DNA from: Curvularia clavata
Lineage: Eukaryota
Assembly (NCBI GenBank): GCA_023920165.1
Contig: CP089280.1
Span: 1,798,001-1,862,000, forward strand
Reading direction: 5' to 3'
DNA length: 64,000 nucleotides
Positions within the stretch are counted from its first letter, which is position 1. Each line of letters opens with the position of its first letter. The position numbers and the translations under genes were made by a program. The notes beneath the pieces were generated by a model. That model was not told the origin of the DNA and ran no database searches. It worked only from the letters and a program-made list of their open reading frames with translations. Below are positions 6,417-7,195 of the stretch, piece after piece.

Positions 6417-6888
6417 AAGCGGGTGGATAGAAGGGTGTTTGGGGGTTTTTTTTCTATCTCCTTGAATTGTCTTACAGATGCCTTACGAAGAACACATGGG
6501 CGTTTGAGTTTTCCCTAGTTTTGGGACAACACTACCTAGGTATTCCTGAATTTTGATTATTCCAATGAACCTAGACACTTTCTCTATCCTGAGACCATGA
6601 TGTCATCTTTGTCAGAGGTGTATGATTCGGCGGCAAATCCAGACATAGAGACAGCGATGTGGACGTGGGTATAGTTAAGTCGGCTAGAAAAGAAAGGCCT
6701 CGAACAGAGAGCCATCGAGCCTGAGGATTTTGGGCCGGCTTTTTAGTCGTTTGTACTGGTTACGCGGGTTGTGTCGTTTATTTGTCGTTAGCCAGCATCG
6801 CATGACAGTAGGATGCACGGGCACTGAGTAGAGAGGAATTTCTGCGTTTGCTTATACTTGTATATACCGCGATGTTCCCGATTCTTCC

Positions 6889-7174
6889 ATCAACCAATCT
6901 TCACTCAGCTCAGCGGCCGGGTGGGCTCCCAGCACGACACTAGGTGGACATGCATCTAACAAAAGTTGGACTGCTAATGAGGCCATAGGATAATGCTACC
7001 TGTGAAAGTACTTGTAACACTAGGAATTGCTGACGGGCATATAGGGAACACTCATGACCTACCTAGTGTCATACCAAATAAAATAGGGTTGCTAATCTAG
7101 GAGGGCGGTCGTTTGAATCCGGACGGGCGCTGGAGCAACAAACGCTGAGAGGAGTGAGGATTGGTTGGTTTTTT
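6889..7174 (+). ncRNA. Candidate RNA polymerase III-transcribed structured non-coding RNA (~285 nt), family not recognised
   Basis: TATATA 6861-6866; 18-bp terminal helix 6889-6906/7152-7169 with two G-U pairs; nested helices 6909-6915/7143-7149, 6925-6933/7129-7136, 6936-6947/7059-7070; A-box-like CAGCTCAGCGG 6906-6916; B-box-like GTTTGAATCC 7111-7120; T6 at 7169-7174. Confidence 0.7.
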
Positions 7175-7195
7175 GCCTTTTTGTGTGCCCTTTTT
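7169..7195 (+). terminator. Pol III-type oligo-T terminator with two back-up T5 tracts
   Basis: TTTTTT 7169-7174, TTTTT 7178-7182 and 7191-7195 directly after the terminal helix. Confidence 0.55.

What the first reader, a model, noticed from the sequence alone, without database searches (positions are those of the whole stretch)
6861..7195. Unassigned ~285-nt Pol III-type structured RNA gene in an intergenic region
Seen: the ends pair in an 18-bp helix (ATCAACCAATCTTCACTC 6889-6906 with GAGTGAGGATTGGTTGGT 7152-7169). It continues through CTCAGCG/CGCTGAG and GCTCCCAGC/GCTGGAGC to a 12-bp inner helix GACACTAGGTGG/CTACCTAGTGTC. The non-Watson-Crick pairs in the 18-bp and 12-bp helices are all G-U on the + strand, as expected for selected RNA structure rather than a DNA inverted repeat. 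TATATA starts 28 nt before the first paired A, A-box-like and B-box-like motifs are internal, and T6 plus two T5 tracts follow. Knowledge: this is the layout of fungal Pol III genes. I could not find the SRP helix-8 motif, RNase P/MRP P4 motifs, U-snRNA or U3 signatures, or a tRNA cloverleaf. Inference: an unrecognised Pol III ncRNA, or a Pol III milRNA precursor of the type described in Neurospora.
Basis: partly seen in the sequence, partly recalled or inferred. Interest (0 to 1): 0.85.

Follow-up and report, generated by a model that had tools for sequence, protein, structure and literature searches.

The report
Unannotated fungal Pol III-type RNA gene
A strongly folding stretch of about 285 bases next to a housekeeping gene in a filamentous fungus looks like a small RNA gene that matches no described RNA family, has recognisable but very diverged counterparts at the same spot in two related fungi, and has a few extra copies in its own genome; whether it is expressed and what it does are unknown.

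Summary
The described structure is real. Window 6889-7175 folds on the + strand to -115.7 kcal/mol (z -6.8), better than the - strand, and a T6 run follows its 18-bp closing helix directly. That arrangement was unique in 1.04 Mb of control sequence. Rfam and ARAGORN find no known RNA.

Two findings change the picture.

(1) The element is not single-copy. In a near-identical strain's assembly, three or four other contigs (probably three other loci) match its 3' part, 7086-7182.

(2) It is not an orphan. Of 80 related fungal loci fetched through the neighbouring UPF0052 gene, two (L005, L007) carry a mutually homologous element on the same strand, at the same distance downstream. Each has a TATA-like box, a near-perfect B box and a terminal T-run. 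The window shares their promoter and 5' block (6854-6934) and their 3' hairpin with its invariant 9-mer (7197-7242). In the window that hairpin lies beyond the T-runs and has lost its own T-run.

My best reading (about 0.45) is a fast-evolving, lineage-restricted Pol III-type ncRNA gene. In this species it gained about 120 nt, a long closing stem and new terminators.

Expression and function are untested. A low-copy SINE-like element and a Pol II small RNA remain rivals.

The parts
6854..6888 (+). Conserved promoter block with TATATA (6861-6866), 28 nt before the predicted first base
   Evidence: This is the best local alignment of the whole intergenic region to L005. Window 6855-6934 aligns to L005 1479-1558 with score 37 against 24.9+-3.4; 0 of 300 shuffles reach it. 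The block starts 438 and 453 nt after the UPF0052 stop in the two sequences. TATAWW-N20-24-ATCAA occurs at only 4 distinct sites in 1.04 Mb, and two of them are here and in L007.
6889..7174 (+). Predicted transcript (about 281-286 nt) if Pol III starts at A6889 and stops in the T6 run
   Evidence: Fold -115.7 kcal/mol, z -6.8. The ends are inferred from the TATA spacing and the T-run. There is no RNA evidence.
6889..6915 (+). 5' arm of the closing stem (18 bp + 7 bp, separated by a 2x2 loop)
   Evidence: It pairs with 7143-7169.
6906..6916 (+). A-box-like CAGCTCAGCGG at +18
   Evidence: It has 2 mismatches to the recalled consensus, which is chance frequency in the window. The block AGCTC(A)GC.GCC is nevertheless shared with L005.
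6936..7070 (+). 12-bp helix (6936-6947/7059-7070) enclosing a 111-nt domain; this accounts for most of the extra length relative to L005 and L007
   Evidence: The distance from the start to the B box is 221 nt here, against about 95-101 nt in L005 and L007. A paralogue in run X19 has 114 instead of 161 letters between 6991 and 7153.
7104..7131 (+). Hairpin carrying the B-box-like CGTTTGAATCC (7110-7120)
   Evidence: A similar word stands at the corresponding place of two paralogues (loose ends). L007 has GGTCGTCTGTTCGAGTCC there.
7086..7182 (+). Segment shared with other loci of the same genome (paralogues)
   Evidence: run X5. Contig records 9 (7086-7176, 15 differences), 10 (7111-7182, 8 differences), 12 (7129-7158, 0 differences) and 14 (7134-7182, 4 differences) match it. 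All have the same depth (about 117-124) as the single-copy flanks.
7143..7169 (+). 3' arm of the closing stem, the best conserved part among the paralogues
   Evidence: No difference is listed at 7152-7169 in any X5 contig.
7169..7196 (+). Three T-runs (T6 7169-7174, T5 7178-7182, T5 7192-7196): candidate Pol III terminators
7197..7242 (+). Counterpart of the 3' hairpin and the invariant TGAGCGTGC (7223-7231) that end the L005 and L007 elements; here it is followed by ATTCT instead of a T-run
   Evidence: Flank 7176-7300 against L007 scores 31 against 19.8+-2.8 (3 of 500 shuffles reach it). Against L005 it scores 28 against 20.1+-3.1 (12 of 500). No similarity continues further downstream.

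Best explanation
The element is an independent small RNA gene of the Pol III type: an upstream TATA box, internal A-like and B-like boxes, and T-run terminators. It belongs to a lineage-restricted, very fast-evolving family of a Pleosporales-like fungus.

An older form of the gene, about 230 nt long, survives downstream of the UPF0052 gene in two related fungi (L005, L007). That form has a 5' 'head' holding the promoter boxes and a 3' part ending in a hairpin, TGAGCGTGC and a T-run.

In this species the orthologous copy changed in three ways. It gained about 120 nt between the boxes. It evolved a 25-bp closing stem (18 + 7 bp) between its first bases and the region after the B box. It acquired three T-runs directly after that stem. 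Pol III should therefore release a hairpin-shaped RNA of about 285 nt ending in oligo-U, while the old 3' hairpin is left untranscribed and its terminator has decayed. The new form was then copied to a few other loci.

Shown here: the fold, its strand bias, the copies, and the orthology of the ends of the unit. Inferred: transcription, Pol III as the polymerase, the transcript ends, and any function. For function I favour a stable La-bound RNP RNA, or a long-stem precursor of small RNAs.
For: Fold and strand:
- z is -6.8 on + against -5.4 on -. The MFE has 10 G-U pairs against one C.A mismatch.
- It is the only stem of 15 bp or more ending at a T-run in 1.04 Mb.

No known family: Rfam gathering scan of the window gave 0 hits; E<=10 scans of 6750-7300 and 7100-7600 gave only noise. 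There is no tRNA.

Relatives:
- Only L005 and L007, of 41 downstream regions examined, carry a B box (<=2 mismatches) followed by a run of 5 or more T within 180 nt on the + strand.
- In 1.04 Mb only 3 of 29 B boxes with at most 1 mismatch have a T5 within 200 nt, and two of those three are these loci.
- L005 and L007 are homologous to each other: SW 44 against 20.8+-3.2, 0 of 300 shuffles. Their flanks are not alignable.

Link to the window:
- The promoter and 5' block aligns to L005 at the same distance from the stop codon (37 against 24.9+-3.4, 0 of 300).
- The TATA-N-ATCAA spacing is shared with L007.
- The 3' hairpin and TGAGCGTGC are shared with both.
- The B box to hairpin distance is alike: 77 nt here against about 85-95 nt.

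Strain differences: both substitutions inside the element in strain X5 (C7053T, C7062T) turn G-C pairs into G-U pairs.

Precedent: Pol III with TATA-like elements is known to drive fungal hairpin RNAs (PMC3547838, abstract and section 9).
Against: - There is no evidence of transcription. No listed holder run is on record as RNA, and that blank is itself uninformative.
- The window's own A-like and B-like boxes are chance-level matches. The B-like box has T where the consensus has the C of TTCGA.
- Over the whole element, the window does not align significantly to L005 or L007 (25 against 21.2+-3.2, 47 of 300; 22 against 20.5+-2.8, 96 of 300).
- The long helices are not seen in L005 or L007, so there is no covariation support for them.
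- The 3' hairpin and TGAGCGTGC are still intact downstream of the T-runs. This is unexpected for an untranscribed relic and would fit a transcript that reads through them.
- One paralogue carries T6 just before 7129, which would cut a Pol III transcript short.
- Five other relatives in the same clade lack the unit within the fetched flank: L001/L002, L003, L004, L006/L029 and L017.
- My shuffles were mononucleotide shuffles, and only three lineages carry the unit.
Confidence: 0.45

Rival explanations
1. A low-copy SINE-like retroposon, or a relic of one. This is a selfish Pol III-promoted element with a degenerate tRNA-like head that has been copied a few times. The RNA fold would be a by-product, and the copy next to UPF0052 is simply an old insertion inherited by three lineages.
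For: - Three or four other contigs (probably three other loci) share 7086-7182, and homology to the window ends at 7176-7182, the presumed transcript end.
- L005 and L007 have A-like and B boxes 49-75 nt apart, like tRNA-derived heads.
- Fungal SINEs of 140-493 bp with 1-5 copies and Pol III promoter boxes are described (PMC5063351, abstract and section 14 part 1).
- The unit is absent in L006, which shares L005's next gene across a 405-nt spacer against 1111 nt in L005.
Against: - I found no target-site duplication. The best flank repeat, CCATCA.CC at 9 of 11, is what chance gives by my own estimate.
- There is no A-rich or simple-repeat tail at the window copy; it ends in T-runs.
- ARAGORN and Rfam detect no tRNA or 5S relation.
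- Same site, strand and distance in three lineages, with conservation confined to the unit, argues for inheritance under constraint, not repeated insertion.
- At one paralogue the 3' flank seems to begin another copy, which would be a tandem arrangement.
Confidence: 0.2
2. A small RNA gene transcribed by Pol II, or part of a longer Pol II transcript. The functional unit would run from about 6889 to about 7242 and the T-runs would be incidental U-rich sequence.
For: - TATA at -28 also suits fungal Pol II small-RNA promoters (recalled knowledge).
- The conserved 3' hairpin and TGAGCGTGC lie beyond the window's T-runs.
- An outer 14-bp pairing, 6806-6819/7226-7239, with its 2 mismatches again G-U on the + strand, would need a longer transcript.
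Against: - All three lineages place T5-T8 at the end of the conserved sequence or of the closing stem.
- L005 and L007 keep a B box at 10 of 11 positions.
- The flanks add no more fold stability than shuffled sequence: z falls from -6.8 to -5.5 on extending to 6800-7245.
- No snRNA or snoRNA model matches. Only weak C/D-box noise appears downstream, at E 0.9 and 3.2.
Confidence: 0.12
3. A TFIIIC/Pol III promoter module kept for its effect on chromatin (a boundary next to the UPF0052 gene). The RNA would be an unimportant by-product, which would explain why the body evolves freely.
For: Conservation is concentrated in the promoter/5' block, the B box and the terminator region, while the body is unalignable. 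The unit sits at a repeated synteny break: upstream genes are kept and downstream genes differ in every lineage.
Against: - The window's B-like box is weak.
- The closing stem and the 3' arm are the best-kept parts among the paralogues, which points to the RNA.
- The unit is absent in five relatives.
Confidence: 0.08
4. A DNA-level foldback or MITE-type repeat, or a neutral palindromic intergenic sequence, with no RNA role.
For: There are nested inverted repeats. Several copies exist in the genome. The element lies in a gene-poor, lineage-specific 3.6-kb region without recognisable ORFs.
Against: - Paralogue homology runs 7-13 nt past the inverted repeat, into the T-runs.
- No target-site duplication was seen.
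- All helix mismatches favour the + strand.
- The ends of the unit are orthologous to non-palindromic elements in L005 and L007.
Confidence: 0.07
5. A very divergent copy of a known RNA (U4, 5S, SRP, RNase P or MRP RNA, or a tRNA-like gene).
For: Only recalled, short word resemblances: a K-turn-like word and a stem-I-like word of U4, 5S-like words in L005 and L007, and an RNase P-like nesting of helices.
Against: - No Rfam model reaches E<=10 on the window element, L005 or L007 apart from unrelated noise.
- Gathering scans of the window and 20 loci gave 0 hits.
- ARAGORN found nothing.
- Those RNAs are not expected in several diverged copies, nor to be missing from a syntenic site in close relatives.
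Confidence: 0.04

Closest known systems
Low-copy fungal SINEs (AfuSINE2/AfuSINE3 of Aspergillus fumigatus; PMC5063351, abstract and section 14 part 1 read)
   Same: Size range (140-493 bp), 1-5 copies per genome, Pol III promoter boxes, location in gene-rich intergenic DNA.
   Different: No tRNA or 5S relation is detectable. No target-site duplication or repeat tail was found. The element has a long closing stem, ends in T-runs, and has a conserved orthologous position in three lineages.
Pol III-transcribed milRNA loci of Neurospora crassa (milR-1; PMC3547838, abstract and section 9 read)
   Same: A fungal hairpin RNA locus whose Pol III transcription depends on TATA-like elements. The long double-stranded stem could feed Dicer.
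   Different: milR-1 has no A or B box. No small RNAs, Dicer dependence or sequence relation are shown here, and this element is larger and branched.
Yeast Pol III genes with a tRNA-like promoter leader (RPR1, snR52) and rodent 4.5S/BC1-type RNAs (recalled; for 4.5SH and 4.5SI only the start of the abstract of PMC10137851 was seen in a search listing)
   Same: A and B boxes in a 5' part, with a TATA-like box near -30 helping; lineage-restricted small stable RNAs ended by T-runs. In L005 and L007 the conserved body lies 3' of the boxes.
   Different: No sequence relation. Processing of a leader is not shown. In the window the part 3' of the boxes is mostly the closing stem.
Y RNAs and vault RNAs (recalled)
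   Same: Small Pol III RNA families whose 5' and 3' ends pair in a conserved stem with a 3' oligo-U tail, while the inner loops vary between paralogues.
   Different: Those RNAs are about 80-140 nt and are defined by Ro or vault binding. To my knowledge neither is known in Ascomycota. No Rfam match.

Membership tests
Any Rfam family (tRNA, 5S, U4, U6, SRP, RNase P/MRP, snoRNAs included) | Score at or above the family's gathering threshold, or at least a credible E-value | tested here: not met
   The window (64 kb) gave 0 matches. 6750-7300 and 7100-7600 at E<=10 gave only bacterial sRNA or snoRNA noise. L005, L007 and 18 further loci gave 0 matches or noise. ARAGORN found 0 genes.
Pol III type-2 gene (TFIIIC-dependent) | A box about 10-20 nt after the start | tested here: inconclusive
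   CAGCTCAGCGG at +18 has 2 mismatches. Such matches occur at chance rate (276 against 279 expected). The block is shared with L005.
Pol III type-2 gene (TFIIIC-dependent) | B box (GGTTCGANTCC, recalled consensus) | tested here: inconclusive
   The window has CGTTTGAATCC, 2 mismatches, at chance rate (48 against 53 expected). The orthologous units have 1 mismatch each: L005 AGTTCGATTCC and L007 TGTTCGAGTCC.
Pol III type-2 gene (TFIIIC-dependent) | Run of 5 or more T at the 3' end | tested here: met
   T6, T5 and T5 at 7169-7196, directly after the closing stem. L005 has T6 and L007 has T5+T8.
Pol III type-2 gene (TFIIIC-dependent) | Transcript with a 5' triphosphate and 3' oligo-U; Pol III/TFIIIC occupancy | not testable with these tools
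   No RNA run was listed as a holder. The runs that were laid are contigs.
SINE | Head derived from tRNA, 5S or 7SL | tested here: not met
   No tRNA, 5S or SRP model match at E<=10. ARAGORN was negative.
SINE | Target-site duplications and an A-rich or simple-repeat tail | tested here: not met
   Read. The window copy ends in T-runs. The only flank repeat, 9 of 11 at 6886-6896/7197-7207, is at chance level and belongs to the conserved 3' hairpin. Paralogue flanks were seen for only 30 nt.
SINE | Dispersed copies in the genome | tested here: met
   Three or four other contigs (probably three other loci) in X5 and 2 in X19 share the 3' part. Full copies could not be read.
MITE / foldback element | Homology between copies ends at the terminal inverted repeats; target-site duplication | tested here: not met
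   Copies stay alike to 7176-7182, past the repeat end at 7169. No duplication was seen.
milRNA precursor | Discrete small RNAs of about 19-25 nt from one arm; Dicer/Argonaute dependence | not testable with these tools
   No small-RNA data could be reached.

The most novel reading that the evidence does not exclude
A previously undescribed family of Pol III non-coding RNA genes exists in Pleosporales-type fungi. It is kept beside the UPF0052 gene in several lineages while its body turns over almost completely. In this species a terminator shift converted it into a long-stemmed hairpin RNA of about 285 nt that has multiplied in the genome and may act as a source of small regulatory RNAs or as a new RNP scaffold.
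Probability: 0.3. Interest if true: 0.7.

Novelty: new variant of a known kind. Interest (0 to 1): 0.5.

Why it matters
Beyond tRNA, 5S, U6, SRP RNA and RNase P RNA, very few Pol III transcripts are known in filamentous fungi. An unannotated Pol III-type gene that is inherited at one site in several lineages yet evolves almost beyond recognition would be useful in two ways. It would be a tractable case of how small RNA genes are born, remodelled (here by insertion, a new closing stem and terminator turnover) and duplicated. It would also be a candidate source of Pol III-derived small RNAs outside Neurospora. If instead it is a low-copy SINE-like relic, it is an ordinary repeat, and it shows how such relics can pass for structured RNA genes.

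Tried and rejected
- Whole genome of the window: not held. Records behind five loci: not held.
- Earlier findings of the scan: nothing by sequence, place or words.
- Sequencing runs: 19 of 23 listed rows hold part of the stretch, and no RNA holder is listed. This says nothing about expression.
- Exact 20-mer of the 3' arm in metagenome contigs: 0 matches.
- blastn and nhmmer of the element against the 80 loci and the rest of the window: no hit. So there is no second copy in the 64 kb, and no sequence-level homologue that these tools see.
- nhmmer with profiles of the three 5' ends, of the three 3' ends, and of L005+L007: no further member in the 80 loci. The E-values for the three members themselves are circular.
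- tRNA genes to calibrate local Pol III promoter layout: none in the window or in 59 loci.
- RNAalifold on L005 and L007: the alignment was too poor for a trustworthy consensus.
- U4, 5S, RNase P/MRP and SRP ideas came from recalled motifs. Rfam rejects them.
- The outer helix 6806-6819/7226-7239 adds no stability beyond shuffles.
- ORFs of 6417-10080: 17 tested, with no Pfam family.
- Literal sequence words in papers: only unrelated aptamer and primer hits, 8 papers.
- Searches for Pol III ncRNA, SINE or MITE literature in Dothideomycetes and Pleosporales: the listings showed nothing describing such an element. I read only the listings, plus two papers in part.
- Downstream similarity beyond the unit between the window, L005 and L007: none.
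Full report
THE OBSERVATION

The sequence at 6861-7195 is as described. Folded as RNA, 6889-7175 (+) gives -115.7 kcal/mol against -80.3+-5.2 for 200 dinucleotide shuffles (z -6.8, none as stable). 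The MFE contains three of the described helices:
- the 18-bp helix 6889-6906/7152-7169,
- the 7-bp helix 6909-6915/7143-7149,
- the 12-bp helix 6936-6947/7059-7070.

The reverse strand folds less well: -94.5 kcal/mol, z -5.4. The same pairs evaluated on that strand give -96.6. The MFE has 10 G-U pairs and a single C.A mismatch, and the three mismatches of the long helices are all G-U on the + strand.

TATATA lies 28 nt before the first paired base. T6, T5 and T5 follow the last pair. As a control I scanned 1.04 Mb of strand sequence (the window plus 80 related loci) for an uninterrupted stem of 12 bp or more that spans 100-450 nt and ends at a run of 5 or more T. There were 13 hits. The next best has 14 bp, and only this one has 18.

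Two details do not hold. The GCTCCCAGC/GCTGGAGC helix is replaced in the MFE by other pairings. The A-like and B-like boxes, with 2 mismatches each to the recalled consensus, occur in the window as often as in shuffled sequence: 276 against 279 expected and 48 against 53 expected.

KNOWN FAMILIES

Rfam finds nothing at gathering thresholds in the whole window. At E<=10 on 6750-7300 and 7100-7600 it finds only unrelated noise. ARAGORN finds no tRNA. I also considered resemblances to U4, 5S, SRP and RNase P/MRP RNA that I recalled from memory. None is backed by these scans.

COPY NUMBER

No genome is held for the window, and the window has no second copy. Public runs do hold the stretch. I laid four of them, as contigs, on 6650-7400.

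In run X5 the flanks are single-copy at depth about 117, and the orthologous contig differs at 2 of 509 positions. Four further contigs of the same depth match the 3' part:
- record 9: 7086-7176, 15 differences;
- record 10: 7111-7182, 8 differences;
- record 12: 7129-7158, 0 differences, at a contig end;
- record 14: 7134-7182, 4 differences.

The 30-nt loose ends of these contigs still resemble the window further upstream, for example a variant of the 3' arm of the 12-bp helix and variants of the B-like hairpin. They are therefore diverged copies of the element and not a shared tail alone. Records 12 and 14 may be one locus, so I count about three paralogous loci besides this one.

Run X19 shows two such contigs. 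One keeps 6969-6991 exactly and has 114 instead of 161 letters before 7153. Homology to the window stops at 7176-7182, inside the T-runs and 7-13 nt beyond the inverted repeat.

Two observations cut against a simple gene-family picture. One copy has T6 just before position 7129, which would cut a Pol III transcript short. At another copy the 3' flank looks like the start of a further copy.

SURROUNDINGS AND RELATIVES

The gene upstream (4688-6416, +) is a CofD/UPF0052 protein. Its best named relative among the longer proteins is from Alternaria (76%), followed by other Dothideomycetes, so the source is probably a Pleosporales-type fungus. Downstream, 6417-10080 holds no ORF with a Pfam match (17 tested). 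A three-LysM protein follows at 10086-10706.

With the last exon of the UPF0052 gene I fetched 80 fungal metagenome loci (49-90% identity). Upstream synteny is kept, but nothing downstream of the stop codon aligns, and neither blastn nor nhmmer finds the element.

Searching for the layout rather than the sequence changed the picture. Of 41 downstream regions, only L005 and L007 have a B box (<=2 mismatches) followed within 180 nt by a run of 5 or more T on the + strand. In all 1.04 Mb only 3 of 29 B boxes with at most 1 mismatch have such a T-run, and two of those three are these loci.

The two elements (L005 about 1480-1750, L007 about 5240-5520) have these properties:
- They lie about 380-490 nt after the UPF0052 stop codon.
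- They fold better than shuffles: z -3.2 and -4.1.
- They have no Rfam match.
- They are homologous to each other: Smith-Waterman 44 against 20.8+-3.2, 0 of 300 mononucleotide shuffles. They share words such as GGAAAAC, GTTTAC, GTCGCG and GAGCGTGC followed by the T-run.
- Their flanks do not align.

IS THE WINDOW'S ELEMENT THE SAME GENE?

Over its whole length it does not align significantly to either one (47 of 300 and 96 of 300 shuffles do as well). Its ends do.

(a) The best local alignment of the complete intergenic region (6417-6940) to that of L005 is the promoter and 5' block: window 6855-6934 against L005 1479-1558. It scores 37 against 24.9+-3.4 (0 of 300), and it starts 438 and 453 nt after the stop codon in the two sequences. 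The same comparison with L007 is not significant (98 of 300).

(b) TATAWW, then 20-24 nt, then ATCAA occurs at 4 distinct sites in 1.04 Mb (1010 TATAWW sites). Two of them are the window (6861) and L007 (5249).

(c) The flank just after the window's T-runs (7197-7242) aligns to the 3'-terminal hairpin of L007 (31 against 19.8+-2.8, 3 of 500) and of L005 (28 against 20.1+-3.1, 12 of 500). TGAGCGTGC is invariant in all three.

(d) The order of parts and the distance from the B box to that hairpin agree: 77 nt against about 85-95 nt.

(e) Nothing further downstream is alike. Conservation is therefore confined to a unit that runs from about 35 nt before the start to the terminator.

I conclude that 6854-7242 is the local orthologue of the L005/L007 unit.

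A tree of the UPF0052 exon places the window, L001/L002, L004, L005 and L006 in one clade (support 98/96), with L003+L007 and L017 next to it. The unit is missing from the fetched flanks of L001/L002, L003, L004, L006/L029 and L017. It has therefore been lost several times at a site where downstream synteny breaks in every lineage. For example, L006 shares L005's next gene across a spacer of 405 nt instead of 1111 nt. Less simply, it could have been gained three times.

WHAT DIFFERS IN THE WINDOW

- The start-to-B-box distance is 221 nt instead of about 95-101 nt. The extra length is essentially the domain closed by the 12-bp helix (6936-7070).
- The first 27 bases pair with a segment just after the B-like hairpin. 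In L007 only 8 bp close the head (by my reading), and in L005 the closing stem is irregular.
- Three T-runs follow that stem directly.
- The old 3' hairpin now lies behind them, and its own T-run reads ATTCT.

Terminator turnover of this kind is what a Pol III unit would show. The copies elsewhere in the genome carry the new 3' end, so they arose after the change.

MECHANISM, WITH ODDS

Most likely (about 0.45): an independent Pol III-type small RNA gene of a lineage-restricted, rapidly evolving family. Here it would produce a branched hairpin RNA of about 285 nt with a 25-bp closing stem and a 3' oligo-U tail.
- Shown: the fold, its strand bias, the paralogues and the orthology of the unit's ends.
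- Inferred: transcription, the polymerase, the RNA ends and any role.
- The near-invariance of the 3' arm among copies suggests either a protein-binding stem or a small RNA derived from that arm. Neurospora offers a precedent for Pol III-made hairpin precursors that depend on TATA-like elements (PMC3547838, abstract and section 9).

Rivals:
- A low-copy SINE-like element (0.2; compare AfuSINEs, PMC5063351). I found no tRNA or 5S relation, no target-site duplication and no repeat tail.
- A Pol II small RNA whose unit reaches about 7242 (0.12). This would explain why the 3' hairpin is still intact.
- A TFIIIC/promoter module kept for chromatin reasons (0.08).
- A DNA foldback or MITE (0.07).
- A divergent known RNA (0.04).

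WEAKNESSES

- There is no expression evidence of any kind.
- Only three lineages carry the unit.
- My shuffles were mononucleotide shuffles.
- The long helices have no covariation support.
- The window's own promoter boxes are weak.
- One paralogue has an internal T6.
- Two strain-level substitutions inside the element (C7053T and C7062T in X5) both convert G-C pairs into G-U pairs. Two events prove little.

VERDICT

It is a new variant of a known kind of element. Interest is moderate (0.5) until an RNA is shown.

Noticed in passing
window 3895-4230: A short block upstream of the UPF0052 gene is more conserved at the DNA level (80-87% identity in many loci) than the UPF0052 exon itself (67-79%). 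Translated matches reach 98% on the + strand. It is probably a small, highly conserved exon or gene.
   Followed up: no
window about 35880-37320 and 43980-44230: The same pair of 11-nt words (spacing about 232 nt) turns up three times, once inverted. This suggests a repeated element present in at least three copies within the window (seen in the hit list).
   Followed up: no
window 10086-10706 (+): ORF with three LysM domains (Pfam E 3e-35), of the kind seen in secreted fungal LysM proteins. It is the first recognisable gene after a 3.6-kb stretch without Pfam-matching ORFs.
   Followed up: no
window 6806-6819 and 7226-7239: A 14-nt inverted repeat brackets the whole unit, and its two mismatches are again G-U on the + strand. 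The 3' arm overlaps the conserved TGAGCGTGC word. Extending the fold to 6800-7245 does not raise the z-score (-5.5).
   Followed up: partly
window 7287-7362 (+); L005 1859-1935 (+): Weak box C/D snoRNA-like Rfam matches lie downstream of the unit in both sequences (E 0.9 and 3.2, far below gathering scores). The two stretches are not alike, so this is probably noise.
   Followed up: partly
window 6962-6978 and 7080-7096: A direct repeat of a 17-nt word ending in TGCTAAT (76% identity), with a third similar word (TTGCTGAC) at 7027-7034. These branch-site-like words are unexplained. The block 6969-6991 is kept exactly in an otherwise diverged paralogue of run X19.
   Followed up: no
window 1259-3262 (-): Long ORF (667 aa) rich in Arg/Ser/Asp/Glu repeats, resembling an RS-domain splicing-type protein. 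It is conserved in the related loci.
   Followed up: no
L005 1026-2134 versus L006/L029: L005 and L006/L029 share the next downstream gene (71% identity), but the spacer is 1111 nt in L005, which has the RNA-like unit, and 405 nt in L006/L029, which lack it. This is a clean presence/absence pair for studying gain or loss of the unit.
   Followed up: partly
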